Shown here in pieces: positions 1 through 53,728 of a DNA stretch of 64,000 nucleotides. The DNA lies in the IMG/VR virus record IMGVR_UViG_3300025161_000006, positions 1 to 64,000 of that record; one strand, given 5' to 3'. Source of the DNA: a virus. The notes under the pieces are model-generated. The model was not told where the DNA came from, did no database searches, and worked only from the letters and a program-made list of their open reading frames with translations. How positions within the stretch are numbered: position 1 is the stretch's first letter; each line of letters begins with the position of its first letter. Made by a program: the position numbers and the translations under genes.

Positions 1-210
1 AGACATAACCACTTTTTCATACTCTTTTCATGGTAGTAAATTTTTATATCCATAGTCACCACAACTATGGTAAATATCGTCTAAGGCCGTGGTCACCCAA
101 TATCTCTTGGCCATAATCCTTATATCCGGCGCTACTGCCAGGACTATGGCCTATGTACTTCTCCCCAGGGATGGCGTGTAGGCAACTGGTTCAAGCCAAT
201 ACCAACACTT

Positions 211-278
211 TCAGGGGGTGGAGTCTCAACTGAGTTGAGTTGAGTATATCCTGCCTAGCAGGATACTCCACCCCCTGA
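211..278. repeat. Perfect 14-bp inverted repeat enclosing two triloop hairpins (three-way junction)
   Basis: TCAGGGGGTGGAGT (211-224) pairs with ACTCCACCCCCTGA (265-278); inner CTCAAC-TGA-GTTGAG and TATCCTGC-CTA-GCAGGATA. Confidence 0.9.
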
Positions 279-290
279 GTGGGGGAAGTT

Positions 291-363
291 AAAAAAAACC
301 CATGCTGCCTGCAATAGGCAGCTTATTTACCTGGCCAAGGGTGTGGCCAGTGAGAGAGGGCTT
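291..363 (-). terminator. Branched terminator-like structure after ORF 362-658
   Basis: - strand reads AAGCCC..[CTGGCCA-6nt-TGGCCAG]..[GCTGCCT-5nt-AGGCAGC]..GGG followed by T8. Confidence 0.55.
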
Positions 364-658
364 ACTTCCAGTAAGCCCTCAATTTATCCCTTATGATTCT
401 TAATTCATCATAAGGGATAAATGTCACTTCACGACCATCTTTGGTCGTGAAGCTGGCTATCTTGGGCACATAGCCCAAGATAGCCAAGCTCATCTCAGCC
501 ACCACAAGGTTGGTGGCTGAGAGAGCTGACAAGCTCTCGGGGGTTAACTCTTGCCCCCCTGAAGTAGCCTTCGCAGAGAAGGCTTCTTCAAAGAGGGCGG
601 GGTTGAGCCCCCCCCTAGGTCTTTGATTAGACATGAATGCCAATTTGCCAAAGTACAC
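362..658 (-). CDS. Hypothetical protein; first gene of the leftward (divergent) unit. GTG start at 658 or ATG at 634
   Basis: 98-aa ORF, GC-richer than the rest of the window, followed on the - strand by hairpins and a T8 run. Confidence 0.55.
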   Translation of the reverse strand: MYFGKLAFMSNQRPRGGLNPALFEEAFSAKATSGGQELTPESLSALSATNLVVAEMSLAILGYVPKIASFTTKDGREVTFIPYDELRIIRDKLRAYWK

Positions 659-742
659 GGGGGGTTTGAGAGAGGTGGTCCACCCTCACAAACTAGTCTA
701 TTCTCCCAAAGAAAGTTATTAGGCAGTAGTGAGTAGGGGTTT

Positions 743-859
743 GGAAAAATTTTAAAAAAATTTTTAAGGTAGGTATGGGAGGGGGTAGGGAGAAATTTTG
801 GTATGAGGTATAATACAGGGAGGGGGTATAAGGAAAAATTTTATAAAAAATTTTTAAGG
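743..859 (+). repeat. Direct repeats of A/T-tract and G-run motifs
   Basis: GGAAAAATTTTA(T)AAAAAATTTTTAAGG at 743-769 and 832-859; GGGAGGGGGTA at 777-787 and 818-828. Confidence 0.85.
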
Positions 860-1180
860 CAGGGGTTTTCAGTGTGGTACAAACAGCAAACTTCTCATTA
901 TCAGCAAGTTATTCTACAATACAGCAGTATCAGGCATTTCCAGAAAATCACTGATTTGGTATGGTAAAGGAACATATGCCAAATTTTGCATTTTAGTGGC
1001 TCAAATTTTAATTTTCTATCGAAGTGGATAGATAACTCAACTTTGAAAATAGCCTCTTAATTTGACCCCTCAGATTGCTTCTAATGCAATTTTGGCATTT
1101 AGGGTTTTAAGAAAGATTCTTTCCTTCTCCCCCACACCCCCTTATCCTATCTTCAAAGAAGTACAGGTTTTACTTACTAC

Positions 1181-1221
1181 ATTATTATATATTATATTAT
1201 TATATTATTATAATTATAATT
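1181..1221. repeat. Pure-AT low-complexity tract, (ATTAT)n-like
   Basis: 41 consecutive A/T bases. Confidence 0.85.
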
Positions 1222-1370
1222 CCAAGAATTGTGCCAGGCTTCTCAAGTTACACACAATCAGATACATAACTTCAGGCATACTGATATACAGATAGTTACA
1301 GGGTAGTATAACTACATACAATATTAATTTTTGTAAATAATTTTTGGTGTGAGAAAATAAAATTATTTTG

Positions 1371-1378
1371 TACATTTG
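1371..1378 (+). promoter_or_regulatory. Bacteroidota-type -7 promoter element (TAnnTTTG) at the head of the late block
   Basis: TACATTTG about 50 nt upstream of ATG 1428; TTTG at 1343-1346. Confidence 0.6.
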
Positions 1379-1427
1379 CTCGTCATTTTGATGGTATTAG
1401 TCAGTACTAATAAACACATCTCAATTT

Positions 1428-1805
1428 ATGGTTAGAGAAAGCTTAGATTTCAAGCTGTACTACTTGAAAAGGCTACTTGCTCTATACGTTCTTTTTACAA
1501 GAAAGTGGAACAAGGTTTCAGTAGAACAAACTGTTGGTGAATTCAAGGGTAAGAAAGTACCCACCATCACCATTAAGTATTATGACCCTACAGACCGCTG
1601 GTACTTACACTCAGATGATGAGAGGGCTTCTGAGTTTGAGATGAAAGAGTTTCCTCTAAGCCACCTTAGTAAGATAATTGTACGTTACAAGAAGAAGGTA
1701 GCAAATGAGTTTAAGAACAGGCATTCCAATACAGCCTTGAAGAAGAAATATCAGGCTGCTCGAGATACCAAAACTAATGTAACTATTGATACAAAAAATG
1801 GATGA
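1428..1805 (+). CDS. Hypothetical basic protein
   Basis: 125-aa ORF with genome-typical codon use, first of an overlapping operon. Confidence 0.7.
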   Translation: MVRESLDFKLYYLKRLLALYVLFTRKWNKVSVEQTVGEFKGKKVPTITIKYYDPTDRWYLHSDDERASEFEMKEFPLSHLSKIIVRYKKKVANEFKNRHSNTALKKKYQAARDTKTNVTIDTKNG

Positions 1806-1983
1806 TAAACAAGGCATTCCTCTTTCTACAGAGGATATAGTAATGTTAGTACGTGGTGAAAGACCTCCTCATATAGAATATGAGATGTATAGAAAACTAC
1901 GTACTGACTTACAGAAACAAACAAAGCATTACCTGAAAGGTAAGTTAGTTAAAATTCCTCAAAAGTCACGTTATGGCAAGTAA
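1798..1983 (+). CDS. Hypothetical protein (likely start MDDKQ at 1798)
   Basis: Short ORF overlapping both neighbours. Confidence 0.6.
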   Translation: MDDKQGIPLSTEDIVMLVRGERPPHIEYEMYRKLRTDLQKQTKHYLKGKLVKIPQKSRYGK

Positions 1984-2353
1984 AGTAATCCAGGTAACTG
2001 TTGACTCGGAGTTTAAGAAATATATGCTCGTATTCAGAATATTAGGTTCTTTGGGGGTAAAGGGATTCAGCGATTCATCAGAGAGAGAACTCCAGCTCTA
2101 TGCTACTCTTCTTATCAAAAGGAATAAGCTCATAGCTGATGGAGTAAAGGATAATTCCCACATAGAAACTTTACTGTTTACACCACAATCTCGTAAGGAG
2201 ATATGTGAGATGCTTGGTATAAAGATTGGAGTATTCAACACATATTTAAGTAGAATAAGACAATCTGGACTTATTACAAATTATACGTTAAACTATCCAA
2301 TTGGAACATTAGATGAGCTCACTATTAAATTTCAACGTAAAGATAACCTCTAA
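1973..2353 (+). CDS. Winged-HTH DNA-binding protein
   Basis: RKEICEMLGIKIGVFNTYLSRIRQSGLI fits an HTH pattern. Confidence 0.6.
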   Translation: MASKVIQVTVDSEFKKYMLVFRILGSLGVKGFSDSSERELQLYATLLIKRNKLIADGVKDNSHIETLLFTPQSRKEICEMLGIKIGVFNTYLSRIRQSGLITNYTLNYPIGTLDELTIKFQRKDNL

Positions 2354-2534
2354 GATTTACTTGCAGAATGGAGAAAACCCTGCTGAAGTTATGCAACATC
2401 TCTATACAGCACTGGCATCTTCGGGGAAGCCTTTTACATTGAAGTTAGTGAGCCATCCATTAACTATTATTGTTGAAGAATATAAAAACTCTAATTTCAT
2501 ATGGTTGGAAGAAAAATCACTCAGTATGAATTAA
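2313..2534 (+). CDS. Hypothetical protein
   Basis: 73-aa ORF filling the gap between coupled genes. Confidence 0.5.
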   Translation: MSSLLNFNVKITSKIYLQNGENPAEVMQHLYTALASSGKPFTLKLVSHPLTIIVEEYKNSNFIWLEEKSLSMN

Positions 2535-3439
2535 ACGGAACACCCGTATATACATATAATTCAATAAACGATGCGGCACAGACTATGGGTGTTAATGAAT
2601 CTACCATAAGAGCTGCAGTTAAGTATGGTAGACAATCCTGTGGATATCTCTGGAGAGCAGAGGAAGAAGCTAAGCCTAAAATCCTGTTCATTGATATAGA
2701 GACTGCACCAAATAAAGCTTATGTATGGAAGCTATGGAAAGAAAACATATGCACAGAGCAACTTATTGATGCATGGTTTATGCTGGCATTCTGTGCTAAA
2801 TGGAATGATGCTTCAAACTTTATTACTGCAGTACTATCTACAGAAGAAGTATTAAGAGAAGATGATTCAAGGATTATACAAAGATTACAGGCACTACTTG
2901 ACAAAGCTGATGTTGTTGTATCCTACAATGGAGATAAATTTGACTTACGACATATCAACACACGAATAGTCAAGTATGGTATAAGTAAACCAGCTCAGTA
3001 TAAGTCAGTTGATTTGATTAAGACAGCCAGACGTAAATTTGCCTTCCCGGGCAATAGTTTAAACGCTCTGGCTAATTATTTTAATATAGATGGCAAAATA
3101 CATGTAGACTTCTCTCTGTGGAAAAGATGTATGGAAGGAGATGCTTCTGCACTATCTGAGCTGGCTATATACAATAAGCGCGATGTACTCATTCTTGAAA
3201 AGCTGTATTATATACTAAGACCTTATGTGGTTGGGCATCACAATACAGGACTTTATGAAAACTATGATACTGAGTATGTATGTCCCTATTGTGGGAGTAC
3301 TCAGGTAACTTCCATTACAGATAAGCAATATACTACAGCAGCATATGCTTATGCTATGTTTAGATGCCAGAGTTGTGGTGCTATAAGCAGGTCAAGAAAT
3401 AATAGCTCAGGAAGGAAAGTAAAACTCTTACCACTATGA
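2501..3439 (+). CDS. DnaQ/RNase_H_2-like 3'-5' exonuclease with N-terminal NUMOD1-like HTH and C-terminal Zn ribbon
   Basis: Exo motifs FIDIET, YNGDKFD, YNKRDV; N-terminal QYELNG..YNSINDAAQTMG..GYLWR; CPYC/CQSC. Confidence 0.8.
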   Translation: MVGRKITQYELNGTPVYTYNSINDAAQTMGVNESTIRAAVKYGRQSCGYLWRAEEEAKPKILFIDIETAPNKAYVWKLWKENICTEQLIDAWFMLAFCAKWNDASNFITAVLSTEEVLREDDSRIIQRLQALLDKADVVVSYNGDKFDLRHINTRIVKYGISKPAQYKSVDLIKTARRKFAFPGNSLNALANYFNIDGKIHVDFSLWKRCMEGDASALSELAIYNKRDVLILEKLYYILRPYVVGHHNTGLYENYDTEYVCPYCGSTQVTSITDKQYTTAAYAYAMFRCQSCGAISRSRNNSSGRKVKLLPL

Positions 3440-3747
3440 ATACAATAAATACCAAGCAGATAATTACAGAGCTTGCTGAGAAGTATGGTATAAGTAAGGA
3501 CCAGGTAAGGGATGTGATAGTAGGTACATTCCGTGCTGTGAGGTATTATATGGGCAGTGCTCCTGATAGGGATAACCTTTATTTCCCTACTATCAGGGTA
3601 AAGGGATTAGGCTCTTTTGCCTGTCCTGATGATATGAAGTATGTGCTTGATAAGATAGTGAATAAGAGAAGAAAAGAAAAAGAAAGGAGGCTTCATGAAG
3701 CTCAAACTATTCGACTTGAAGGAGAAGCAGGTAATTATAGCTCCTGA
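3436..3747 (+). CDS. HU/IHF-like DNA-binding protein
   Basis: IITELAEKYGISKDQV...IRVKGLGSF; typical crAss position upstream of terminase. Confidence 0.7.
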   Translation: MNTINTKQIITELAEKYGISKDQVRDVIVGTFRAVRYYMGSAPDRDNLYFPTIRVKGLGSFACPDDMKYVLDKIVNKRRKEKERRLHEAQTIRLEGEAGNYSS

Positions 3748-33881: not shown

Positions 33882-35816
33882 ATGAGAGGATATAATCCAT
33901 ACTTACTTAACCGGGGGTATTCAAATCAAGCTTCTGCAGATGTAGGTGTAGAAGTGCCTGCGCTCTATAACCCTGCTTTTGGTGATAAGATTACTGAGGC
34001 TATAGCTTACAATCAGGAGCGTGCTGATAAAATAAATCAGGCTATTGCTGAGATGAAAGCTAAACAAGCTCAGGAAGTAGCAGTGTCACAATTAGATGAA
34101 GCAGTAAGGCAAAAAGCTATTGATGATATTAATCAGCAATACAATGCCCTCATGGAGAAGCATGCTAATGACCCTTCAGCTGCTTATACTGACCTTGTTA
34201 AGTTAGTGGGTAATGCATGGAACAGTCCTTTCTGGATGGCTAACAGATATAAAGCTAAGCAACTTGAGACAGAGCAATCTCTGGCACAGCAAGGATATTT
34301 GGTCTTTAAGTCTATTAAAGATATACCTATTGCTGACCCAACCACAGGCAGGATAAAATCATTTGAAGAGTTAACTCCTCATATTGAAAAAGCTAATGAC
34401 TGGGCTGCCAGGCAAACTCAGATTGTGGATGATGTGCTAAAGACTGAAAGTTTTGATGGTCCTCTACCAACTCCTGAGGAGATACAAAAACAAATTAAGG
34501 CTGGAGTACCGTGGGTAAGTATACTCAAGACATCTGGTATATTCACTTCACAGGTAGCTAAGAAGTTGGAAGGTATGATAAAAGAATATAAGGCAACAGC
34601 TCCTGAACACTATGACCAGCAAAAGCGTTGGTACATGAAAGAGTATAAGGAGTTACATCCTGATGCTTCAGATAATGAAGCTGCAGATGCTGCAGATGAT
34701 AGGATATCTAAAGAAGTTGCTGTTAAAGCAATGAATAGGGTATGGACAGCTACAGATAGGCAGGTACTTACTATACCAAGTGGATTTGGTTCTACTAATA
34801 ATGAGCCATATAAGCCACCTCTTGTACCAGGGCCAACAGTAGTTCTGAACTACCCACTCTCTTCATTATCCAAGGCGACTGCTTTGAAAGATGCAGTTAA
34901 AGTAGCAAAAGGTGATGATATAGAAACTAAAGAAGCTGCACGTCATGTCATTGGACTTACTCTTGCAGACCTTAAAGACGATGCTGATGTTAAACCATTC
35001 ATTGCCTATGATAGTAAAGGTAATATAGATACTGATAAAACACTGTATAACTTATATGGCTCGGCAGCATCTCAATTTGAACCTAACACTAAGAGTCAGG
35101 AAGGTGAAATAAAATTAACAGAGGCAACTACTGGCCCAGCTGCTGTGGAAGGACTACCCTCACAAGAAACAAAGAAGGCAATAAAGAAAATAGATGATGC
35201 ACTTACACAAAAAGCACAGTTTTTCAAGCGTCCTATGAATTTCCAGGTATATATGTTACATCCTGCCATATCAGATAATGCAAATAACATTATTAACACT
35301 TATGTCAGAAACTCAATAGATACTCATAAGGTAGAAATAGTTGGTACTGCTGATAAAGATTCAGAAAAGCTTATGAATCCCAAGAATAGAGAAAAGCTGC
35401 TCGTACTGGGTACTAAAGATAAGCCAACTGCTGAAGATTTAGGTAATGCACGTATAGTAGGATTTACTGGAGACTACTCAACAGGTATAATCTATTATGC
35501 TAAGACAGATAATAATACTTACTTGTTAAGAACCCCAGATGCAGCTATTAATGGTGTATCAGCTAATATGCTTGGAGATGAAGCTAGTACAATATATCTT
35601 GCAAACCGTGCATATGAGCAGTTGAAAACAAATGCAAAAGACCCACAAGCTAAATATTTAAGCGTAGATGCTCTCTTTGGTGATGAACATTCAAAGAATG
35701 CTCTTAACATATTACTTGCACAGACAGGTGTTAAGCTCGATGCTAATGATAATGCAGAGACTTTATTCGGAAAGATTAAAGGTGTTGAAGTAGTAAATGC
35801 ATTTAATACAAAATAA
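33882..35816 (+). CDS. Virion cargo protein 2
   Basis: Helical 644-aa protein between cargo 1 and the RNAP gene. Confidence 0.65.
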   Translation: MRGYNPYLLNRGYSNQASADVGVEVPALYNPAFGDKITEAIAYNQERADKINQAIAEMKAKQAQEVAVSQLDEAVRQKAIDDINQQYNALMEKHANDPSAAYTDLVKLVGNAWNSPFWMANRYKAKQLETEQSLAQQGYLVFKSIKDIPIADPTTGRIKSFEELTPHIEKANDWAARQTQIVDDVLKTESFDGPLPTPEEIQKQIKAGVPWVSILKTSGIFTSQVAKKLEGMIKEYKATAPEHYDQQKRWYMKEYKELHPDASDNEAADAADDRISKEVAVKAMNRVWTATDRQVLTIPSGFGSTNNEPYKPPLVPGPTVVLNYPLSSLSKATALKDAVKVAKGDDIETKEAARHVIGLTLADLKDDADVKPFIAYDSKGNIDTDKTLYNLYGSAASQFEPNTKSQEGEIKLTEATTGPAAVEGLPSQETKKAIKKIDDALTQKAQFFKRPMNFQVYMLHPAISDNANNIINTYVRNSIDTHKVEIVGTADKDSEKLMNPKNREKLLVLGTKDKPTAEDLGNARIVGFTGDYSTGIIYYAKTDNNTYLLRTPDAAINGVSANMLGDEASTIYLANRAYEQLKTNAKDPQAKYLSVDALFGDEHSKNALNILLAQTGVKLDANDNAETLFGKIKGVEVVNAFNTK

Positions 35817-35823
35817 TTCTACT

Positions 35824-38800
35824 ATGAGAAAATTTTCTATTGACAAGAATGTTTTAACTGAAAATTATGCTAACCCCACTTCTATTACACCCGAAGAAGC
35901 TGCTAAACAACCTATACTAAGTACACCTGGCCAAATAGGTTATACTTATGAGCAACTAAAAAGGTATATACCAGGACTTGTATCTCCCTATGATTTTCAA
36001 GAACAGCTTGGTGTTTATCAGCCAGCATCAAGTAAAGTACTCAATGGTCTTGGTAAGATGGGTATTACAGCTGCAGCTACCTTCAGTGATGCTTTTATTG
36101 GCACTGCAGTAGGACTTGTCAATATGATTGGTGGTGGTAGCTTTACAGATAATCCTTATAGTAGAGCTGTTAATGACCTTCTCGCTAAATCAGAAGAGTG
36201 GCTTCCTAACTATAGAACACATGCAGAAGAGAATATGAACTTATTACAGAAGTTAGGTACTGCTAACTTCTGGGCTGATTCTATCATTAAGAACACAGGC
36301 TTTGCACTTGGTATGCTTGGTGCTGCTATGGTAGGTAATGAACTTGCCTTCTCCAAGATATTTGGTGCATCCAAGTTAGAAGGTCAGATAATGAGAGCTC
36401 TTGGTGCTTATGGCGATGATGCTGTCAAAGGCATTAAGGCTCTTGATGGTACTATACTTCAATCATCAGATGACGTACTGAAAGCACTGTATACAAATAA
36501 TCTTGACCTTGCTAATCTGTCCAATGAGGTTATCCAGAATGCTAAAATGCTCAAGATAAAGAGTGGACTTCAGGCAGTTACATCGGCAGCCTGGGGTGCT
36601 CAAGGTGAAGCAAGGTTTGAAAGTATTAATACACGAGATGAAACATATCAAAATTTAATAAGAGATGAGCTAATAAAGACGCAGCAGCAAAATCCTTATA
36701 GGCTTATCACTGAAAATGATATTCCTGAAGAGAGAAAGCAGGAGTTTAAAAAGCAAGCTGCTGCTGCAGGTAATATTGACTTCGCCTTAAACATGCCACT
36801 GCTTACTGCTGGTGAGCTTATACAGTTTAGTAAGGTTCTTGGCAGAGGATATAAGTTCGAGAAGAGAGCTTTTAACCTGCTGCAAGATAAAGTAGCTCTT
36901 GATGAGACAGGTAAGATGGTTATCCAGGCACCTAAGGGATTCTGGCAAAAGGCTGCACGTGCTGCACTTGTTACAGGTAAGGTGCTTGAAAGGCCCTATC
37001 TTGAAGGTCAGGAAGAGCAGCTTCAGTTTGCTATACAGGAAGGTTCAGAAGATTATGTAGCAAGAAGGAATGACCCTAACAGTCAAGGGTGGTTAACAGA
37101 TGGATTTAAAGCTACAGTTGAAGGGTTATCTAAAGCCTATGGTACTCAGGAGGGGTGGGAGAACTTCCTCGCCGGATTTATCACCTCTATGATACCTATG
37201 CCTACCTTTGGAGCTAAAGGAGCTCCTAAGTTTATGTCTCCTATGGTAGAAAGCATCAAGGAGTTAAAGGAAGGTAGAGCTGCTGTACAGTCTGCTGTTA
37301 ATTCCTTTAATAAGATGTACAACACTTATGAACCTCTTATTAAAGGTATTACAGCAATACGTAGTTATGAACAAGATAAGTCCAAAGCTTTAGAGAATGA
37401 TGATGTATTCTCATATGAATCAGCTAACTCAATGCAGCTTACAGAGCTTGTAATGGCACTGCATGAGCTTGGTAGGCTTGACATATTAAAAGAGAAGATT
37501 GCACAAGCACGTGAGCTAAGTGGTGATGATATTATTAAGATGCTCACTATAACCAAGGATGCGCAAGGCAATCCTCTTCCTCAGGAAAAGTGGATTAATC
37601 CTTATGAAAATACAGACCCTGATGAAGTTAAGCAGATATACAATCAAAGACTTGATAAGCTACAAGCTCAGATAGATGCTATTGCTAAGATTAAGGAAGG
37701 AGTAGAAACACAATTTGGTAAATATACCAGCGCTGAAGGTAGGGTGGCGCTCATTCATGACCTTGCCTATGCTGAGAACCTTGACAGTAGAATAAAGAGT
37801 ATGTCTGCTGACCTTCAGAGGCTTGGTGTTGTAGATAGTGAAAAGCTTGCTGCACTACTTGAAGAAAGAGCTAAGCTTGGCCTGGATATTGCAGGTGCTA
37901 CTACACGTGCTGACATATCTAAACTGGATGAGCTTAACAAGAAGATAATTGATGGTATTGTAGCCTTTGAAGGTGAGAATGCAAGACCAGAGCTTGAGGC
38001 TATGGCTAAAGCAAATCCTCAAGCTCTCATTGAAAGAGCAAGAGCTTCTATTCAGGAAGAACCTACACGTAGAGCTGGTCTTAGATTGATACATACCTCT
38101 ATACTTGAGAAAACAAATACCAAGAGAGAAGAAATAGTAAAAGAAAAAGCAGCTCTTAATGAGAATAAAGAAATAGCTGAAGAAGAAAAGACTGCTAAGA
38201 ATGCAGAGCTTGACAAGCAACTTGAGATATATGATAAGGTACTTAAGACTAGTCAGGATAGACTTAGTGAACTTCTTGGTAATAACTATGATTGGATAGC
38301 AGATGAACTTAAAGCTCTTGAAGAAGAAAATGCCAGATACACTAAAGCTAAGGAAGAACTTGATGCACTTGTAAAGCAACAGAATGCTCTTGTAGAGAAG
38401 ATTGCAGAAGTACAGACAAATAAACTTGCTACTCTTGGTCCTGTATATGGACTATCTAAAGAAGAGTATATCAACAGATTAGTTGCTCTGCATGATGCTC
38501 AGGAGCAGCTTAATGCCAATGTAGCTGCCAGGATGAAAGAAGCTCCTCATCTTTCTGAGGATATATTCAAGCTTGTTACTGATATAAGTAGAGCCCAGAA
38601 TGCTAAGCTCAGGGCACTTAACAATTATATGAACAATGTTAAAGCTATACATGATAACCCTGAAGCTTTTCAGAAGAGATTAGATAAGTTATTTGACCAT
38701 CTTAACAACAGAGCTGTAGAGTCAAGAATTGCCACTCTTAAGGAAGCTACAGACCTTGCGAATGGTAGAATGGCTTTTGTTGATAATGCTAGTAAAGAAG

Positions 38801-41800
38801 TTCTTGTTGCAGAGAAGACGGGGGATAAAGCCTACACTTTATATGGACGTAATGCAGCGAGTGGTGAGTTTAGTATTAACAAAGGTACTTATGATATAGA
38901 TAAGGATTTTATTGAGAGATATACACCACTGTATGAGCTGCAGGTTAAGAAAGTTACTGATGATAACAGGTTAAATCCTGAAGATGTCAATGGTACAAGT
39001 GATGCGGGTAGTCTATCTGACATGGCTCCTATAACAAGTACAAGAAAGTACAATAGGGTATCTTTTAGAATACCTTACTTTAGGCCTGGAGTACTATTCG
39101 TAACTACAGATGCTTATTATCTAAGAGAACAGACTGATAAAGGTGATGGCATTCCTGCAACTGCTGCAGATGTAAAGAAAGCTATTGATAGTGCTTCTAC
39201 ACCCCAGCAGAAGGCTAATATCAGGTATGACCGTTTTAACTCACGTAATAATGTCCTTAGTGGAAGATTCAAAGTTAAGGTAAGAGAGCTAACTGCTGAA
39301 CAAGTAGGAGCACCTGGTACATTTGAAGGTGTAGGTAAGTTTGCTTTTATTGTAGATATAGATGGTGACTATGTAGATATGGATGGTAAGAAAATACCTG
39401 AGTCTGAAGCTCTTGAAAATGGTATTTACACATCCATAAGATTACCTCAACATGCTATAGAGACTGTGTCAATGGAGCATCCTGAAGACTCCAGCAAGAC
39501 TGTTGATATGTATGTTATTGTGGATAAGAATAACAGGCAACTCACACTACCTATAGCTGATAAGAAAGCTCTTCAGGAAGAAATAAATAACTATGAGAGA
39601 TTCTACAATAAGATAAAGGATGGAGATATACTTCCCATAACTGCAAAGTTTCAGGGCAAGGAAGTAGGTGGTGAGAATAGACCTACCGGTGAGGTATTAT
39701 CCAACATGTCTGAGGCTACACATAAGGTTACAGTAGTTACTAAGGGGTTTGTTGAAGCTGGTAATACACGTTATACTGCACCTAATGGATTTGTATTTGT
39801 AGTGGATGAAAATAATAATGTAATACAGCTTCAGCCAAGGACACTCACTGAAGATGAAGTAAATTCTATACTTGAAATTGCTGAATACATTGCTGAAGAA
39901 GGTATTGATGATGCAGGTAATCTTATAGCTTCTAAGTTGGAGGGTGACTCTGAAGCAGAGGGTACAACTACAACACAGAAGAGCCCTGAAGAAGCTGAAC
40001 TTGAAGCTGCTATGAGTGAGGCTGTTAAGAAAATCTCTCAGGGTGCTAAAGCAAAAGTTCCTCTGTTTGAAGCTATAGCAAGTCTTGTATATACACCTAC
40101 AAGAAGTAATCTCAGTGATGCTGCTTATAATAAGATGCGCTCTGAGATGAGCGATATGATAAGCTCTTATTCAGATAAGTATAATAATGCTAAGACAGAT
40201 GAAGAGAAGCAAGCTGTAGTATTAGAGGTACGTAATAAACTTACTGAAATCATAGATAAGTTTGTACCCAGGACAAATAATGAAGATAGAATTTACTTTG
40301 TAGGAGCTTTATCTGATGAATCATTACCTCTTGGGCTATCCAATCTGGTAAACATAGGTGGTAACTTCTATGAGCTTCGTGATGCTGATGGTAAGTTAAA
40401 TGAAGATACAAGAAAAGCTCTTAAGGAAGCTCTGGCTAACAGGATGATGCAGATAAGTACTACACTTGTTAACTCACACAAACCTATCAATGTCCTGCAG
40501 TCAGCTAAACGTGATATGGCTAATCATACCATCACGTTGAAGACTAAAGAAGAAAAGGATAGATTTGAGTTTGTAAAGAAGAATACTACTACTGATGCTG
40601 TTGTAGGAAGTACAGAAATACCAACAAGATTAGGACAGAGCTTACGTATAGGTGATAGTAGTGCTTATGAGCAGAAGAGACCTTCTTCAGATGAAGAAGA
40701 CCTGGGTGAAGGTACACCACTTGATTCTATTCTTGGTGGTAAGAAAGCACAGGAGCAAGCCACACCAAAAGGCAAAGCTTCTGCCAGGGGTAAGAAAGTA
40801 AATTATACCAAAGGACCCAGAGGCAAGAGATACTACTTTGAACCTATCAAGAAGGGTAATAAGGTAATAGGATATAAACGTCGTGTAGCTTCTACTAAGG
40901 AAGAGATAGCTCTGGCTAACAAACAGGCTAAGCAAAACTTTGTTCGGGTAGAAGATAGTAAAGGTAGAATACGTAAAGTAAATGGTAGTATATTATTCCA
41001 GCTTGATACTGGTGCTACTAAAAGTACTCAGCATGGCACTACTACTAAGAGTACAGAGGGGAAGAGTAACCTGGAGGCTTTACGTGAAGCTATGGGTATT
41101 AAAAAAGATGTTAAGATTAAACCTCAGAAGCCAACTGGACGAGCTAAAGAATTACTTGAAGCATTTGAAAAAGTCGAATTAGTAGATGATGGTACTATCG
41201 AAGGTGGTGTTAAAGGTACTGAAGAAGCATTAAAGAAATTAGCTGAGGCACAAAAACAGCAATCTCAAGGCACACCTGAGCAGAAACCCACTGAGAGTAA
41301 AGAAACTCCTAAGACTCCTCCTCGGGTTGATACTAACAAACTGCCTGAAGAAGAGGCACCCTACAGATTGGCTAGTGAGCTACCTGAATATGAGAAAGAA
41401 GATATTGAGAAAGCAAGAGCGTGGGTACAAAGTAAATTTGGTAACTCTATAACATTTGAAGTGGTAGACCGTCTTATCAATGGTAAGGCGTGGGGTATGT
41501 TCTATGATGCTTGTATCTTCTTGTATAAGCATGCAGAAGTGGGTACAGCCTATCATGAAGCATTCCATGCTGTAAAGAGGATGTATCTCTCTGATAGAGA
41601 ATGGAGAGATATTGCTAATGAGTTTAGGGCAAGACCAGAAAATAAAGGTAAGACATTCACAGATAGTCAAATTGAAGAAGCTCTTGCTGAAGAGTTTAGA
41701 AACTATGTACTTTCTGATGGTAAACTTGAGATACGCTCACCAAAGAAGCATAGCTTCTTCTCCAGACTGCTTGACCTTATCAAAAGGCTCTTTGGTATGG

Positions 41801-44800
41801 ATAAGTCTTCTATCAAAGAACTGTATGATAAAGTACTCAGCGGGTACTACAAAGATATGAGGCCTATTAGAAGTGGTGTGGCTGAGCTTAAATCTCAGAA
41901 TGCAACACCTGGTGATATATATGCAAATAAGCCTGCTTACAGAGAGATACAGAGTACTAAATACTCTGCATCTATGGAAGGTGCTCTACTGGAAGGCATG
42001 GCATATCATTTCTCTGCAGCCTTATTTACTTCAAGTAAAGAAGCAGATGTGATTCAAAAGCTCTTCTCTAAGGTAGGTGTATCTGGGGAAGTGGTTGAAG
42101 ATGCTATGAATTATTGCAAGGACGCTCTTACAAAAACAAGAGATAATCTTATACGCATTGCACAACAGACAACAGATGCCACAGAGAGAGAAGGATTTCT
42201 TGAGAGAGCAAAGGTACTTGATGAATACCTTAATAACTGGAATTATACTATAGAAAGGTTCTCTCTGTATCTCAAGCGTTTTGGTATTAGCCTTAACATT
42301 AGAGAGCGTACTGCTGCAGAAGCTGCTATTGATACAGAGATGAATGAAGATGCTGCTAGTGAAAATGAAACTAATGTTGAGAATGTTGATAGAGAGCTTG
42401 AAGATAGTGGCAAGTCCACAGATTATATCTATAAGTCTCTCACTGTATCTTCAAAGAAGACAGCCAGTCGTGTTGTTAAGATGCTCATAGCTACTCTTGC
42501 TGAAGTAAGTGAGAAGGGTGCTATCATACGTAATGAACTTGGACTACCAAAGCTTGTTGGTTATGGACGGGCTTTTAATGTTATGTCAAATGTCCTGGCT
42601 AACACGACAAATGTCAGGTCATTCCTTGACAAACTAAATACCCTATCTAATAGACCCGGATTTACATGGGTTAAGTACTTTATCAACAGAATTAAAGCAC
42701 AGCACATTGTAGAAGCAGGTAATCAAGATATATCAATAAGGCAACTATCTACGTTCTTTGCTGCTGCGCAAACATTCTGTAAATATAAACATACAGGTAA
42801 TATCATACTTGTTGATGAAGCTGGTAAGGACACTATTGTAAATGCTAACAGGTTATCCAGTGAAAGAAGAGTACTTATTGAATGGATGGCCCGGGCAAGC
42901 AAAGATGCTGCTTCTAAAGATAATAAGTTCCTTGTCATTGATAATGGGGTTATTAAGTACAATGCCAAAGCATTACTCTCCAAGTATAGTCATGGTAAGT
43001 TTAATGCTGATGATGCCTTAAGTTTTCTCAATGATATAGGTGTATACCTTAGTGATATGCCTGAAGACAGAGAGATGCGTGAAGCTATCATTAAGAAGGC
43101 TCAGTCTATTTATGAGGCTGTTGTAAAGCACATGGATGATAAGGGATTATCTGCAGAAGCTCATATCTATGCAGATGTTAACAAGGGAGATAATTCTATT
43201 CAGAGCATCATCAGAGCAGAGATGTCACTTCTTGGTGGTATAGATGATATTGAGAATAGCTATAGAGATGTTAATGGTAGAAACATATATGCTATCAACC
43301 TATATGGATATACTACCTTCATGCTGGAGGACATAAAATCTATTATTGCAGAAGCACGCAAGGAAAATAAAAGTGTTGAAGAGATAAGAGGGCTATTGAT
43401 ACAGAAATACCCTCAGCTGGGTGAGGAGTATGCAAAGCATTCTTTATTACTTGATAAGCTCATCAATGGAGAAAATGTAGAGATGCATCTCATCAGTGGT
43501 CTTAATCCTGGTGAATATGCTGATACAGTGCCTGCTACCAAGATGAAAGGACCTGATAGAGTACGCCTTGAATTTAACAATCATAAGAAGGGTGTTTACT
43601 CTATGAGTCAGCCTGCAGATAACTCTGTGAAGAGAGTATTTACCTTTGGGCAGTTCTTTACCAAAGAAGAGGTACGTACTAACAAGCACATTAATGCCTT
43701 TGTGTGGTATCTAAGAGATGAAATAGCTCTTAGAGCTGCACATAGCAAGGCTGGGGAAAATTACACAAAGGTAAAAAACAACCTTTACAGGGGTGTAATG
43801 ATTGACTTTGTAAGGAAGTACCTGGCTACAGATGAGCAGAGAGCTCAATTTGATAAAGAGCTTAAGGAAGCTATTGATAATGGTAGCAAAGAAGCTATCA
43901 ACTCAATGCTGGCAGGTATGATTGATAGTATCACTCAATCTATAGCTGCAGGTATTAAGGCAGAGAGTGATTCTATGACAAAGTTACTGCTTTATAATAA
44001 TCTTGTACAATCTGATGATAGTACAGGTACTACACTTTACTCTTCATCTGCACTTGACTTTGACTCAACTAAAGCACTCACCAAAGATGAGCTTGATGCT
44101 GAAGTGATGCATTATACTGTTAACCAGATGGTGTCCAAGATGGAGCAGATGAAGCTCTTCCTTGGAGATATGCTGTATAGCAAAGATTTGCTTGAGAAGT
44201 ATAAACGTAATAATGCTGCTATCTCTCCTAAGAAGATATGCTTTGCTGAGACTAAGGATTCTCCTGTTGAAAGAGTAACACAGACAGTAGTACAGGGTGC
44301 TGATAATGGGCATTTACTCTATGATGAAAGAACTGGTCGTAAGATACTAAGGACTCTTGTTGTAGAAGACCCTGTTGTCAAGTCAGACCTGTATGATGCT
44401 TATGCTGAGGTTATAGATGACCCTAAACCTTATAAGGAAATTACTGAAACAGATGGATTCTGCTTTATCACTATGGATGAGTGGAGAAGGATGTTACTTC
44501 GTGTAGGCGAATGGACTGAAGCTCATGAGCTGCTCTATCATTATGAGATGCAGCAGTATCTGGGCAACCTGGTTAAGCAAGGTAAATTTGCTAAAGATGA
44601 TTTCTATAGATTATTTGGACATAATGAATATGGTAAAGTATATTATGTAGGCAAAGAAGTAAAAGCAAAAGATATTAAGCTGAAGGTTAACTCACTTAAG
44701 GCACAGTACTATGGACCTATAGTTGGTGGTGGTAGTGCTATGACAATGTATAAAGCCTCATTCTTCCCTATGCTCCCTTCAGCCTTCATGGATAAAAATG

Positions 44801-47800
44801 GCAAGATTACAAAGACTTCCATGGCTAAAGTGTACTACGCTGCAATGCTCAATGGTATAGGAATAGTAGGATTTCAATCAGCTAATAAGGGATTAACATC
44901 TATAGCTAATCCTAATAATAAGCTATACACTGGTGACAGGCAGTTAAACATTGCATTTGACAAGCCTGAAGAGCTGGCAGATAATATGTCATTTCAGGAT
45001 ACTTACTATGAACATTGGGGTATACAGCAAGATACGGGCTTTGACAGGCATAATGAGAATGTACTTGGTACTCAGATGATGAAGATTATACGCTCTTATA
45101 TCTATTCTGAAGGTAAGCCTGTTAATGAGAAACAAGCAAGAAGATTAAGAGGGCTTGATGAGCTTAATGCCAGAAGATTACAGTATGGTGTAAAGAATCT
45201 TATTAATACACTTGGGCTTACCTATGATAGCCAGCGTGATGTTTATATTATTGATGCAGAATCTCTTGATAGTATTAAAACAAGACTTATAAATGTTGCT
45301 GCTGCAAGGGATGTACCTGAGAATATCATAGAGGCTATTAATAACTTGAGCCCTTCTTATGGAGCAGAGTTGATTGTTGATAGAAAGACTATGGAAAAGC
45401 TCCTTACTTCTATTGCTAAGAATATGACTATCAGCAGGAAAGTAAGAGGCTCAGCTCCTTATCAAGTACCATCAACACTCTTTGAACCTGATGAGTTTGT
45501 AAAGACTAAGACTAAGGAAGGTAACAAGGAATACTTAACATCCAACTTCCTTAAGACTTATAGGAATGAGAATGGTGCCATCACTAAGATGCAGGTTTAT
45601 CTTCCTTCTTATCTTGAAGGAGTGATTAATCCCAAGAATGTGGATGCATCCCTGCTTCAACTTATAGGATACAGAATCCCAACACAAGCACTTGCTTCTA
45701 TTGAAGCTATTGAAGTTGCAGGATTCTTGCCTGCACATTATGGAGATGTGATTGTACTGCCTACTGAAGTAGTTGCTAAGACTAACAGTGACTATGATAT
45801 TGATAAGATGAACCTTATCATACCAAGGTACTATACAGTTAACAAACAACTTGCTGATGGAAGAATAGTAACAGAGCATCATGTTATTAAGGGTACAAAG
45901 ATTGCTTATGATAGTTATGTAGCTGATGTAGAAGCTCATAATATTGTAAGTGAGAATAGACAGGCTATAATGAGTTTTGATGAGTGGATGGAGCAGTCTA
46001 TTGAGAATGATATGATAAATACTATATCTTCTATACTCACTGACCCATCTAACTTCAAACATCTTATAGAACCTGTAGGTCCTGGTAATTTAAGTAAGTT
46101 ACGCAGTGACCTTGACCTGCTCACACAAGGTATCTTTAGAGAGAACTTTGCTACTGATGAGGAATATGAAGCTGCAAGAAAGCAGGCTTTACAGAGAGAA
46201 AGTTCCTATGGGTTTGACTCATTCATAAGTCCTACTTTTAATGTTAGATTTGAAGAAGAAGCTATAGAAGGTAAGGAATCTATTGGTATAGTAGCTCTTG
46301 CATTAACATTTAAGATTATTTCAGCGGAGCATGAAGTGTCAGTAGCTCCACAAATAGAAGTTTCAAATCCCTATACCAGAGAGACCAGGACAGTAGCTAC
46401 TTACATAAGGCTTCTTCACAATACAAATGAGAAGGGGGAGATATCTTTATCTAAGCAGACAGATGTAGAAGGTAAGTCTATTAACAATACACTAAGTAAG
46501 TATGCATCTCTAACTGTAGATAATATCAAGACTATGGACTTGAAGAGACTTGATGTTACTACAGCAACCTTACCTGTAATAGAATATCTTGTTATGGCTG
46601 GTGTACCTGTAGAGACTATCCATCTGTTCCTAAAACAACCTGCTATACAGAGGTTCTTACAGTTACAAGAATATTATGAGTCAGCTACAGCTGTATCTCA
46701 GGATGATGATGCTAATGTAAGTATGATACATAGCATGGTTGAGGAAGAGTTTGCTGTTGAGAATATGAGTGCTTATGATATACCTTCTACAGTTGATGCA
46801 AAAACTCTTGAAGATGCTATCAAGAAGTTTATACTTAACAAAGGTAGTCTCTCTGCTGAAGCAAAAGCTTTTCAGATTGCTATGCTAAGAGATTACAGAC
46901 ATTATATGAGTGTAGCAAAAGGACTTTCAAGCGCAGTACAGGCTGTTCAGTATGATACTCAATCTGTAGGTAGCTCTATTGGTAGAATCATTTATATGCT
47001 TACTCTCAAAGAAAGAGCACTTGAACAGGGTATTATCCAGGGATTTGATAAGATACTTGGATATGCTGGGGAGCATTCTTTTGTGAAACCTTACAGAGAA
47101 ACTCTTGAAGAAGTACTGAAGATATATCATCCTTACTTTATACAGCTTTACAATGAGCCCTTCTATGAATCTCTAACCGACTTAGCTCGCAAGCTTACAT
47201 CAAGTGGAACATACTATAGTAAGGATGAAGTAATAAGAATACTTGATAACTATGCATCAGAGTTTATTACTTATCTGATGATGACACGTGAAGTATCCAT
47301 TAATGGAACGAAGATAAATAAGCCTGTTAGTGAGATGACTGATGCCTTATTTACAGGTGAAGATGCTGTAGGTGCAAGAATAGCAAGAATAAAGGACATT
47401 ATCAGGCGTGGAGATATGGGTGAACAATTTGATAATGCAGAAGAGTATGCTCTGTATAATAACTACAGTGATAATGCTTTCATACGTAGTATCAGTGCTA
47501 TCTATGATAGTGAGACTAATATGTGGGGTGTAGTCTCATTTAATAATAAACTTGAAGCTATAGAATCTGATGATGTTACTAAGGGCTGGCAAGAACTCTT
47601 TGATGCAGGAGACCCTCTTGCTACAGAGCTGGTCTTACTTGCTATACATCAGACAGGCATAAAGGATGTACCAGGCTCATTAATTAAGTTCATGCCTGCC
47701 AATATATATGCAGATATGATTAGTTCAGTACTAAGGACAGCTGATGTAACAATAGACCACAGTGAGATACAATCTTTCCAGAATCAGTTTATACTGAATA

Positions 47801-53691: not shown

Positions 53692-53728
53692 GTGGAAGGG
53701 TGTAATTACAATGTAATTACACCCCCAC
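53692..53728. terminator. Palindrome at the convergence of late and early/middle blocks (bidirectional terminator-like)
   Basis: GGGTGTAATTACA-A-TGTAATTACACCC with outer GTGG/CCAC; no clear U-tracts. Confidence 0.6.

What the first reader, a model, noticed from the sequence alone, without database searches (positions are those of the whole stretch)
50..365. Dense cluster of hairpins and three-way junctions forming a candidate ~310-nt structured RNA on the minus strand
Seen directly, reading the - strand: (1) a branched element with two 7-bp hairpins ending in T8 (291-363); (2) a 14-bp perfect stem (211-224/265-278) enclosing two triloop hairpins; (3) a 12-bp stem GGCCATAGTCCT/AGGATTATGGCC (109-120/140-151), whose one non-Watson-Crick pair is G-U on the - strand but A-C on the + strand; (4) a CCATAGT/ACTATGG hairpin (50-70). 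The region is far more GC-rich than the genome, contains no long ORF and matches no RNA family I recognise. Inference: an unannotated ncRNA or structured leader near the start of the leftward unit, or extrudable DNA cruciforms.
Basis: partly seen in the sequence, partly recalled or inferred. Interest (0 to 1): 0.72.

Follow-up and report, generated by a model that had tools for sequence, protein, structure and literature searches.

The report
Hairpin-packed small gene and RNA leader
The hairpins are real and kept by evolution, but they are one end of a longer, roughly 650-base block on the minus strand of a crAss-like phage, most of which is a small protein-coding gene written almost entirely as stem-loops.

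Summary
Observation confirmed; interpretation partly supported.

**Extent.** The hairpin-dense, GC-rich block runs from window 50 to about 690, not 50-365. It is the most structured part of the 82-kb genome.

**Three parts, read on the minus strand:**
- **362-634:** a 90-aa orphan gene, ORF90. It is under purifying selection (dN/dS 0.10-0.18) and is open in 3 of 3 related sequences. Its mRNA is a chain of stem-loops, with z about -9 against synonymous-codon permutation.
- **291-350:** two hairpins and a U8 run just after the stop codon, resembling a terminator.
- **50-290:** a non-coding structured segment.

**Evidence that the pairing is selected.**
- Stems are kept by compensatory changes: 22 of 135 pairs and 8 of 74 pairs.
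- G-U against A-C counts and sense-against-antisense folding mostly point to minus-strand RNA.
- In two relatives, the next leftward genes, which are missing from this broken contig, are also hyper-structured.

**Novelty and limits.**
- There is no Rfam match, and ORF90 has no protein homologues outside its own cluster.
- The scan's index holds no look-alike DNA.
- The function is inferred, not shown: stable, nuclease- or probe-resistant early transcripts.
- No RNA data exist, and only 3-4 lineages carry the block.

The parts
668..687 (-). 5'-most hairpin, upstream of the ORF90 start, inside a block that is identical in all three sequences
   Evidence: Helix 1 of alignment A4: 7 of 7 pairs never vary. 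The block about 640-691 is invariant although its surroundings are 60-85% identical.
362..634 (-). ORF90: a 90-aa orphan protein-coding gene (ATG at 634-632, stop at 364-362) whose reading frame is almost entirely base-paired
   Evidence: Translation. The frame is open in own, L039 and L040, while the other five frames hold 2-11 stops. Variable columns by codon position are 27:12:47 (p = 2e-5). dN/dS is 0.10-0.18. Further orthologues are P0004, P0002 and P0005. There is no Pfam or PHROG match. MFE is -144 to -155 kcal/mol with z -9.2 to -9.8 against synonymous permutation.
539..612 (-). Long imperfect hairpin inside ORF90 (30 pairs)
   Evidence: A4 helix 5: 4 pairs changed on both sides, 94.4% of cells paired.
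495..538 (-). Two adjacent hairpins inside ORF90 (521-538 and 495-520)
   Evidence: A4 helices 6 and 7: 2 and 3 pairs changed on both sides. A further compensatory variant of the 495-520 hairpin appears in a contig of run X3 (table 7).
453..487 (-). Hairpin inside ORF90 with a perfect 14-bp stem
   Evidence: A4 helix 8: 4 pairs changed on both sides.
427..452 (-). Perfect 11-bp hairpin inside ORF90, invariant in the three sequences
   Evidence: A4 helix 9: 11 of 11 pairs never vary.
382..422 (-). Perfect 16-bp hairpin inside ORF90
   Evidence: A4 helix 10 has 2 both-sided changes. One pairs a synonymous Pro change with a synonymous Arg change. The other pairs Asp-to-Glu with Ile-to-Leu.
356..380 (-). 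Perfect 11-bp hairpin that contains the ORF90 stop codon
   Evidence: A4 helix 11 has 5 of 11 pairs changed on both sides, including stop TAA-to-TAG compensated by a synonymous Ala change.
291..350 (-). 3' untranslated hairpins (331-350 and 304-322) followed by U8 (298-291): a terminator-like or 3'-stabilising end of the ORF90 message
   Evidence: flags 322-304 plus the T run on the minus strand; the stem and the T run are 5 nt apart. Helix 12 is invariant and helix 13 has 2 both-sided changes. The T run is kept in all three sequences.
212..277 (-). Three-way junction: a long stem enclosing hairpin 246-266 (invariant) and hairpin 225-244
   Evidence: In A3, helix 2 has 1 both-sided and 3 one-sided (G-U) changes. 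Helix 3 has 9 of 9 pairs invariant. Helix 4 has 3 of 5 pairs changed on both sides.
109..151 (-). 12-bp stem with a small inner hairpin
   Evidence: A3 helix 8: 2 both-sided changes, 100% of cells paired. The odd pair is G-U on the minus strand in 2 sequences and A-U in the third.
50..97 (-). Terminal hairpin 50-70, or alternatively a longer helix pairing 54-65 with 86-97. It lies at the edge of a segment that differs between relatives.
   Evidence: Sequence. The outer pair of 50-70 changes C-G to U-A in L039. The alternative helix 10 of A3 is nearly invariant, so neither form is settled.
156..291 (-). Weak long-range closing helix (281-291 with 156-166) and a weak helix at 174-208, seen only when the minus strand is folded
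   Evidence: A3 helices 1, 6 and 7: 87.9%, 94.4% and 83.3% of cells paired, with 2 both-sided changes in all. Support is low.

Best explanation
The finding is one end of a zone of unusually folded minus-strand (leftward) RNA at the head of the phage's leftward gene unit.

**Shown**
- Window 362-634 is a real 90-aa protein-coding gene (ORF90).
- Nearly every base of its message sits in one of seven back-to-back stem-loops.
- The stems are kept by paired substitutions, mostly between third codon positions.
- Positions 291-350 form the gene's 3' hairpins and U-run.
- Positions 50-290 are a non-coding segment with a three-way junction and a 12-bp stem, also kept by paired substitutions.
- In relatives, the next leftward genes (a phiEco32-type COOH-NH2 ligase and a glutamine amidotransferase) are also far more folded than synonymous-codon controls.

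**Inferred**
- The selected object is the RNA, not the DNA.
- The folding makes these first leftward transcripts long-lived and hard to reach. Single-strand-specific nucleases, Rho, or base-pairing guides would all have less access.
- The hairpin plus U-run at 291-322 ends or attenuates the ORF90 message.
- Positions 50-290 act as the folded spacer or leader carried by read-through transcripts into the next gene.
For: **ORF90 is coding**
- The frame is open in 3 of 3 sequences that are only 75-80% identical in nucleotides.
- Variable columns by codon position are 27:12:47. dN/dS is 0.10-0.18 with dS 0.7-1.45. The other five frames hold 2-11 stops.
- The only indel is one whole codon.
- A fourth-lineage orthologue exists, P0004.

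**The structure goes beyond what the protein dictates**
- z is -9.2 to -9.8 against synonymous permutation in all three orthologues.
- Among 84 genes of this genome, ORF90 scores -8.3 while the other 83 range from +1.2 to -4.1.

**Covariation**
- For 285-700: 96.8% of cells paired, 22 of 135 pairs changed on both sides, 0 of 500 shuffles as high, and slid controls give 0-4.
- For 40-300: 94.6% paired, 8 of 74 pairs changed on both sides, 3 of 500 shuffles as high, and slid controls give 0-2.
- 16 pairs inside the coding sequence changed on both sides.

**Strand**
- On helices predicted for both strands in 285-700, G-U on the minus strand outnumbers G-U on the plus strand 13 to 3.
- Non-coding 40-290 folds better on the minus strand in 3 of 3 sequences, with difference z of -1.6 to -2.1.
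- The ligase gene folds better in sense than antisense: summed MFE -616 against -535, and -597 against -457.

**Extent of the zone in relatives**
- Ligase z_syn is -2.4 to -6.3. Amidotransferase is -3.6 to -7.0. The 141-aa gene is -2.4 to -4.0.
- Rightward control genes score -1.9 to +0.3.

**Positional precedent**
- In the crAss-like phage phi14:2, long intergenic regions near the start of the early genes give abundant RNAs that persist through infection. This is from passages of bioRxiv 10.1101/2020.03.07.982082.
Against: **Transcription is not shown**
- There is no evidence that any of this is transcribed; no RNA data were available.
- No promoter was identified. There are no sigma-70-like hits on the minus strand between 640 and 900. 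A recalled Bacteroidota -7 box is absent on both strands in 630-1010.

**DNA-level pairing is not ruled out for ORF90**
- ORF90 folds equally well in sense and antisense (difference z +0.1, +0.5, -0.4).
- Its stems in this genome are perfect palindromes, so DNA-level pairing remains possible there.
- In 40-300, the G-U against A-C count on shared helices is 4 to 6, giving no strand call.

**Limits of the comparison set**
- Only three full sequences and two or three fragments exist, and they are related. Shuffle controls therefore overstate significance.
- The 13:3 asymmetry could partly reflect strand-biased mutation.

**Weak or inconsistent features**
- The start codon is not consistently unpaired: unpaired probability is 0.38, 0.57 and 0.26, against 0.21-0.23 for the rest of the coding sequence.
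- The U-run is 5 nt from its hairpin, which is not a textbook terminator.

**Not general**
- phi14:2 intergenic regions and early genes are not hyper-structured.
- Relatives at about 60% TerL identity show no such array within 8 kb upstream of TerL.

**The protective role is pure inference.**
Confidence: 0.5

Rival explanations
1. The non-coding part 50-290 is a discrete small RNA or cis-regulatory leader with a specific job, such as a switch that controls read-through into the next leftward gene. On this reading it is not merely part of a generally folded zone.
For: - It is non-coding: there is no conserved frame, variable columns by position are 28:22:22, and indels are not multiples of three.
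- It folds strongly, with z -7.2 to -8.9 on the minus strand.
- It holds a 21-nt hairpin (246-266) that is invariant while its surroundings are about 80% identical.
- The 50-70 hairpin competes with an alternative helix pairing 54-65 with 86-97.
- It sits between a U-run and the start of the next ORF in L039.
Against: - What follows it differs in each relative: a 70-aa ORF in L039, 360 nt of other sequence in L040, and unknown in this contig.
- No promoter or clear terminator bounds it.
- The two alternative helices never vary, so neither is supported by covariation.
- There is no Rfam match.
Confidence: 0.2
2. The palindromes act as DNA. They could be cruciforms or single-strand hairpins serving a replication origin or packaging site. 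They could also be entry points for the virion RNA polymerase, which in a related phage prefers single-stranded templates.
For: - The five stems at 356-522 are perfect 11-16-bp palindromes with 3-9-nt loops. They fold equally on both strands.
- The block lies at the divergent junction of the two gene units. It is next to conserved A/T-tract palindromes and a strongly G-skewed stretch at 700-900.
- The phi14:2 virion polymerase transcribes single-stranded DNA well and double-stranded DNA poorly, and its early promoters share no motif (passages).
Against: - In relatives the same stems hold G-U pairs on the minus strand 13 times against 3 on the plus strand.
- The neighbouring hyper-structured genes fold clearly better in sense, as does 40-290.
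- The hairpins share no sequence motif, and no second copy exists in the genome.
- An origin would not explain folding spread over about 3.5 kb of coding sequence in relatives.
Confidence: 0.15
3. The hairpins have no function. They would be a by-product of templated (quasi-palindrome) mutation that keeps inverted repeats perfect, or a legacy of the foreign origin of this GC-rich, fast-diverging module.
For: - The block belongs to a segment that is 60-85% identical between relatives, while everything to the right of about 900 is 95-100% identical. This fits a module with its own history.
- Its GC content is 50% against 36.6% genome-wide.
- Intrastrand template switching can create paired changes in one step without selection. 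This is general knowledge and was not tested here.
Against: - Folding excess of z about -9 is retained in three lineages whose synonymous sites are near saturation (pS 0.47-0.64).
- Stems contain G-U pairs with a strand bias, which template copying would not produce.
- The same ligase gene in an unrelated phage (77% aa identity) is only weakly structured, with z -0.5 to -3.1. The folding therefore does not travel with the gene.
Confidence: 0.1
4. ORF90 is a toxic small protein of a type I toxin-antitoxin-like or lysis-timing module. Its heavily folded message, closed by 5'-3' pairing, would keep translation off until the RNA is processed.
For: - The consensus fold closes the whole message with a 6-bp helix between 662-667 and 296-301.
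- The predicted protein has a long central helix at residues 32-53. By my own hand estimate it is moderately hydrophobic.
Against: - The closing helix never varies, so it has no covariation support.
- At 90 aa, with charged residues in the helix, ORF90 is unlike known type I toxins. This comparison is recalled, not tested.
- No antisense RNA gene or promoter was found.
- The structure model is of modest confidence (pLDDT 69.8) and has no fold match at E below 0.001.
Confidence: 0.05

Closest known systems
Genome-scale ordered RNA structure in RNA viruses, and the pervasively base-paired coding RNA of single-stranded RNA phages such as MS2 (recalled knowledge, not a tool result)
   Same: - Coding sequence carries far more stable base pairing than synonymous or order-randomised controls.
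- The pairing is kept by paired substitutions at wobble positions.
- The folding is spread over several genes instead of forming one compact motif.
   Different: - This is a double-stranded DNA phage, and only the first roughly 3.5 kb of one transcription unit is affected.
- The extreme case is one 90-aa gene made of seven back-to-back hairpins.
- No role in replication or encapsidation of RNA is possible here.
Abundant, persistent long non-coding RNAs from the g004-g006 intergenic regions of crAss-like phage phi14:2 (bioRxiv 10.1101/2020.03.07.982082; passages read)
   Same: Both are long stretches near the head of an early or leftward gene unit of a crAss-like phage. The authors left the function open.
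   Different: - The phi14:2 regions show no excess folding (z between about +2 and -4) and no hairpin array.
- There is no sequence similarity.
- Most of the block here is protein-coding.
Intrinsic terminators and 3' stabilising hairpins of bacterial and phage messages
   Same: A GC-rich hairpin (304-322) and a U8 run follow directly after a stop codon, and both are conserved in relatives.
   Different: - There is a 5-nt gap between stem and U-run.
- A second invariant hairpin lies upstream.
- The U-run may also pair with the 5' leader.
- These elements explain only about 60 of the roughly 650 bases.
Hairpin promoters of coliphage N4 early genes used by its virion RNA polymerase (recalled knowledge)
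   Same: Both involve hairpin-forming inverted repeats at the head of early genes, in a phage that injects its own RNA polymerase.
   Different: - N4 hairpins are short (recalled as 5-7 bp with a 3-nt loop), few, and share a sequence.
- Here the stems are 11-16 bp, all different, and lie inside a coding sequence.
- The strand asymmetry points to RNA.
In-frame palindromic repeat elements (REP/RPE-type) and attC-like cassette hairpins, as met elsewhere in this scan (e1-1092999, e1-3417035)
   Same: Both are hairpins with compensatory stem changes lying inside open reading frames.
   Different: - Those are repeat families with many copies and a cognate transposase or integrase.
- Here every hairpin is unique and no other copy exists in the genome.
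- The genome has no Y1 transposase or tyrosine integrase.

Membership tests
Any Rfam family | Covariance-model score at or above the family's gathering threshold | tested here: not met
   cmscan of window 1-1500 on both strands with permissive filters. The best of 17 hits scores 22.5 bits against a threshold of 86. None comes near its threshold.
Protein-coding gene (for 362-634, minus strand) | A frame conserved open in diverged relatives, an excess of third-position changes, and dN/dS well below 1 | tested here: met
   The frame is open in 3 of 3 sequences. Variable columns by codon position are 27:12:47 (p = 2e-5). dN/dS is 0.10-0.18. The other frames hold 2-11 stops.
Conserved RNA secondary structure | Base pairs kept through changes on both sides, more often than in shuffled and slid controls | tested here: met
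   22 of 135 pairs (0 of 500 shuffles as high; slid controls 0-4) and 8 of 74 pairs (3 of 500; slid controls 0-2). Caveat: only three related sequences were available, and the structure was predicted on the same alignment.
Conserved RNA secondary structure | Strand-specific signal: G-U tolerated on the transcribed sense only | tested here: inconclusive
   The signal favours the minus strand in 285-700 (13 against 3). It also does so for 40-290 by folding energy (3 of 3 sequences) and for the ligase gene. It is neutral for ORF90 by folding energy and for 40-300 by G-U count (4 against 6).
Intrinsic terminator | A GC-rich stem immediately followed by a U-run | tested here: inconclusive
   The scan flags 322-304 plus the T run on the minus strand, but the region yields 2 such sites against 1.6 expected, and 5 nt separate the stem from U8. 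The stem and U-run are conserved.
REP/MITE-type palindromic repeat family | Many similar copies in the genome, and a cognate HUH/Y1 transposase | tested here: not met
   BLAST of 1-720 against the whole genome returns only self-matches. Y1_Tnp is absent.
Integron-like attC cassette sites | A recurring hairpin family at cassette borders together with a tyrosine recombinase | tested here: not met
   The hairpins are all different and abut each other inside one ORF. The Phage_integrase family is absent from the genome. The contig is incomplete, so this absence is not final.
N4-type hairpin promoters | Short hairpins with a shared sequence, located upstream of early transcripts and acting on the template strand | tested here: not met
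   Stems are 11-16 bp with loops of 3-9 nt and no shared sequence. The asymmetry favours the sense strand. The defining features are recalled, and transcription starts were not testable.
Type I toxin-antitoxin (hok/sok-like) | A small hydrophobic toxin, an antisense RNA, and 5'-3' fold-back of the toxin message | tested here: inconclusive
   A fold-back helix is predicted but is invariant. No antisense promoter was found. The protein is 90 aa with a modest-confidence model. Toxicity is not testable here.
Replication origin | Iterons or initiator sites next to an AT-rich unwinding element, with mapped initiation | not testable with these tools
   Conserved A/T-tract palindromes at 745-765 and 834-855 and a G-skewed stretch lie beside the block. 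No initiator binding or initiation data exist.

The most novel reading that the evidence does not exclude
The head of this phage's leftward unit is deliberately written as double-stranded RNA. ORF90, and to a lesser degree the ligase and amidotransferase genes behind it, would be dual-coded. Their messages would then offer almost no single-stranded surface.

This would act as a counter-defence against host systems that must reach single-stranded phage RNA. Such systems include RNA-guided CRISPR types III and VI, single-strand-specific abortive-infection RNases, and Rho.

ORF90 itself may have arisen de novo from a folded non-coding RNA.
Probability: 0.12. Interest if true: 0.85.

Novelty: new variant of a known kind. 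Interest (0 to 1): 0.6.

Why it matters
- **Dual constraint made visible.** Selection for pervasive RNA folding inside coding sequence is well known in RNA viruses. My four literature searches found no description of it for a DNA phage. A 90-aa gene kept both as protein and as seven back-to-back stem-loops shows plainly how the two constraints are reconciled. Even the stop codon co-varies with its pairing partner. Most paired changes link wobble position to wobble position.
- **A possible new early-gene strategy.** If the folding protects early transcripts, it would be a new kind of early-gene strategy or counter-defence in the very abundant crAss-like phages.
- **A compact test object.** It also gives a 270-nt gene with four natural variants for experiments on how ribosomes and nucleases cope with near-total base pairing.
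- **Why the score is capped.** The element is known from only a narrow environmental lineage, with no host and no RNA data.

Tried and rejected
**Known families and enzymes**
- Rfam search with permissive filters gave nothing near threshold. The tRNA/tmRNA scan found none.
- Megablast of 1-3500 against the phage collection gave no match.
- The genome has no reverse transcriptase, RNase III, tyrosine integrase or Y1 transposase. Retron/DGR, phage RNase III processing, cassette and REP readings were dropped.

**Search for more relatives**
- An exact-pattern scan with the arms of the 211-278 stem gave 0 hits.
- Scans with the invariant hairpin 246-265 gave 0 hits, and with the invariant 5' block only the already known relative.
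- 28 loci related by TerL, mostly about 60% identical, show no hairpin array within 8 kb upstream of TerL. A folded stretch in L023 turned out to be an unrelated small ORF region.
- Loci related by the 312-aa protein are unrelated high-GC phages.
- A ligase relative in another phage (L043) has no ORF90 or hairpin block upstream.

**ORF90 protein**
- There are no Pfam or PHROG hits.
- No homologues were found outside its own cluster among 5.8 billion and 1.8 billion sequences. The two borderline multi-stretch hits are discounted.
- ESM Atlas scores were 0.86 or lower, useful only as leads.
- The AlphaFold model has pLDDT 69.8, and Foldseek against the PDB gave nothing at E of 0.001 or below.

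**Sequencing runs**
- No RNA holder was listed among 17 runs.
- Laying 4 DNA runs gave only contig pieces. X6 resembles L040, X2 is a 285-nt piece close to this genome, X3 is a short variant piece, and X5 gave nothing.

**Other checks that led nowhere**
- Start-codon accessibility is not consistent across orthologues.
- Promoter hunting found no minus-strand sigma-70-like site between 640 and 900. A recalled Bacteroidota -7 box is absent in 630-1010.
- The phi14:2 intergenic regions and early genes are not hyper-structured, so the phenomenon is not general.
- Earlier notes of this scan hold nothing for this genome or for similar sequence.
- Two literature searches on crAss-like hairpins and non-coding RNA gave nothing relevant, nor did one on stem-loops within phage coding regions.
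Full report
**Context.** The window is the first 64 kb of an 82,059-base virus contig.
- Its plus-strand genes run from 1428 to about 53.7 kb and include a large terminase, a portal and a 4,339-codon ORF.
- Its minus-strand genes run from about 54.3 kb to the contig end and include a family-A DNA polymerase and a helicase. This layout is typical of a crAss-like phage.
- The finding therefore lies in the region from which the two units diverge.
- The contig is broken exactly here. In two relatives (L039, an 84.8-kb metagenome contig, and L040) about 2.9-3.6 kb lies between the sequence matching this contig's last bases and the sequence matching its first bases. That stretch carries minus-strand genes for a phiEco32-type COOH-NH2 ligase and a class-II glutamine amidotransferase.

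- Region 40-700 folds with z -13.7 (minus strand) and -18.0 (plus strand) against dinucleotide shuffles.
- It holds 5 perfect hairpins of 9 bp or more and 12 of 7 bp or more. In 500 shuffles the means are 0.016 and 0.42.
- In a GC-adjusted scan of 1639 windows across the genome, the five most extreme all start at 201-451.
- GC is 50% against 36.6%.
- No Rfam family comes near threshold and there is no tRNA.
- The array does not stop at 365. Five perfect hairpins with 11-16-bp stems lie back to back at 356-522, and further hairpins reach about 690.

**Most of the block is a gene.**
- On the minus strand, 634 to 362 is a 90-codon ORF, here called ORF90.
- The same frame is open in L039 and L040, although the three are only 75-80% identical in nucleotides there.
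- Variable columns fall 27:12:47 on codon positions 1, 2 and 3 (p = 2e-5). dN/dS is 0.10-0.18 with dS 0.7-1.45. The other five frames hold 2-11 stops. The only indel is one codon.
- A fourth-lineage orthologue and two fragments are in the protein collection. Nothing is found beyond this cluster among 5.8 billion and 1.8 billion sequences.
- There is no Pfam or PHROG match.
- A modest AlphaFold model (pLDDT 69.8: two helices, a beta-hairpin, a helix) has no significant fold match.
- ORF90 is therefore a real gene restricted to this lineage, and its function is unknown.

**The gene is also a folded RNA.**
- Each of the three orthologous coding sequences has an MFE of -144 to -155 kcal/mol over 270 nt. 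This is z -9.2 to -9.8 against permutation of synonymous codons.
- Across 84 genes of this genome tested the same way, ORF90 scores -8.3 and the other 83 range from +1.2 to -4.1.
- On the three-sequence alignment of 285-700, 96.8% of pair cells are paired and 22 of 135 pairs changed on both sides. None of 500 shuffles reaches this, and slid controls give 0-4.
- Sixteen of these pairs lie in the coding sequence. Most link one third codon position to another.
- Examples include a synonymous Pro change paired with a synonymous Arg change, Asp-to-Glu paired with Ile-to-Leu, and the stop codon TAA-to-TAG paired with a synonymous Ala change.
- A contig from another run carries yet another compensatory version of the 495-520 hairpin.

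- Positions 356-380 are a hairpin holding the ORF90 stop codon.
- Positions 331-350 and 304-322 are 3' hairpins, and 298-291 is U8. Together they look like a terminator or a 3' stabiliser. However, the stem and U-run are 5 nt apart, and the consensus scan is no better than chance for the region.
- Positions 50-290 are non-coding. There is no conserved frame, variable columns fall 28:22:22, and indels are 1, 2, 5 and 7 nt long.
- The 50-290 segment's three-way junction (212-277), 12-bp stem (109-151) and terminal hairpin are kept. Overall 94.6% of cells are paired and 8 of 74 pairs changed on both sides; 3 of 500 shuffles reach this, and slid controls give 0-2.
- The inner hairpin 246-266 is invariant.
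- The hairpin 50-70 competes with an equally invariant helix pairing 54-65 with 86-97, so neither form is settled.
- To the left of about position 40 the relatives differ completely from each other.

**RNA or DNA, and which strand.**
- On helices predicted for both strands in 285-700, cells that are G-U on the minus strand outnumber cells that are G-U on the plus strand 13 to 3. In 40-300 the count is 4 to 6.
- By folding energy, 40-290 is better on the minus strand in 3 of 3 sequences, with difference z of -1.6 to -2.1. The adjacent non-coding stretches of L040 and L039 give -2.9 and -2.8.
- ORF90 itself is symmetric, with difference z near 0. This fits its perfect palindromes and leaves a DNA-level role open for that part.

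**The block heads a larger zone.**
- In L039 and L040, the genes behind it in the leftward direction are also far more folded than synonymous controls: ligase -2.4 to -6.3, amidotransferase -3.6 to -7.0, and a 141-aa gene -2.4 to -4.0. Rightward control genes score between -1.9 and +0.3.
- The ligase folds much better in sense than antisense: summed MFE -616 against -535, and -597 against -457.
- A 77%-identical ligase in an unrelated phage (L043) is only weakly structured and has no ORF90 upstream.
- The whole zone coincides with a segment that is 60-85% identical among the three relatives, whereas everything to the right of about 900 is 95-100% identical.

**Interpretation.**
- What is shown: a conserved, selected, mostly minus-strand RNA structure laid over a real small gene and its downstream spacer.
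- What is inferred: these first leftward transcripts are built to be stable and inaccessible. I rate this at about 0.5.
- A positional precedent comes from passages of the phi14:2 preprint. Long intergenic regions at the head of its early genes give abundant RNAs that persist through infection. Its virion polymerase prefers single-stranded templates and uses no recognisable promoter motif.
- The phi14:2 regions and early genes are not hyper-structured. Relatives at about 60% TerL identity also lack such an array. The feature is therefore lineage-specific.
- The rivals are set out separately with their tests: a discrete regulatory RNA at 50-290, DNA cruciforms serving an origin or polymerase entry, a mutational by-product, and a type I toxin-like message.

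**Limits.**
- There are only three full sequences and a few fragments, and they are related.
- No RNA data exist. No RNA run is listed, and only DNA contigs could be laid.
- No promoter was found.
- The gene that follows 50-290 in this genome is unknown because the contig ends at position 1.
- The supplementary files of the phi14:2 preprint were not read. They may define the non-coding RNAs more exactly.

Noticed in passing
window 728-765 and 817-854 (also 781-799): Two copies, 89 bp apart, of a motif with a G-rich flank, an A5T4/A7T5 palindrome and a further conserved flank, plus a partial third copy. The A/T palindromes are conserved in both relatives. The stretch 701-900 has a plus-strand GC skew of up to +0.6. 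This may be bent DNA, an unwinding element or promoter-associated repeats at the divergent junction.
   Followed up: partly
window 1 and contig end (G000:C1:82059): The contig is broken in the variable leftward module. Relatives L039 and L040 carry 2.9-3.6 kb here, including a COOH-NH2 ligase, a glutamine amidotransferase and small ORFs. The last bases of this contig encode the C-terminal end of a homologue of the L040 141-aa gene.
   Followed up: partly
window about 900: There is a sharp step in divergence among the three relatives: 95-100% identity to the right and 60-85% to the left. Synonymous divergence in ORF90 (pS 0.47-0.64) is far above that of the gene at 1428 (pS 0.07-0.12). This looks like a recombination boundary between modules with different histories.
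   Followed up: partly
L040:1763-3260 and L039:1495-3001 (minus strand): The ligase and amidotransferase genes of the relatives are themselves strongly over-folded against synonymous controls, and mostly in the sense strand.
   Followed up: yes
window 974-991 and 1084-1100: Two similar AT-rich palindromic motifs lie about 107 bp apart in the almost invariant stretch upstream of the first rightward gene. They are candidate operator or promoter elements (D5, I19, I22).
   Followed up: no
window 53698-53724: A perfect 12-bp hairpin with a 3-nt loop lies exactly where the rightward and leftward gene units converge. It is a likely two-way terminator.
   Followed up: no
window 35797-48813: A single 4,339-codon open reading frame on the plus strand. 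It is presumably the giant virion protein typical of crAss-like phages, but it was not analysed.
   Followed up: no
L039:3425-3637 (minus strand), matching just left of window 31: L039 has a 70-aa ORF starting directly after the structured spacer. L040 has unrelated non-coding sequence there. This genome has a different ORF start at about 20-18 that runs off the contig.
   Followed up: partly
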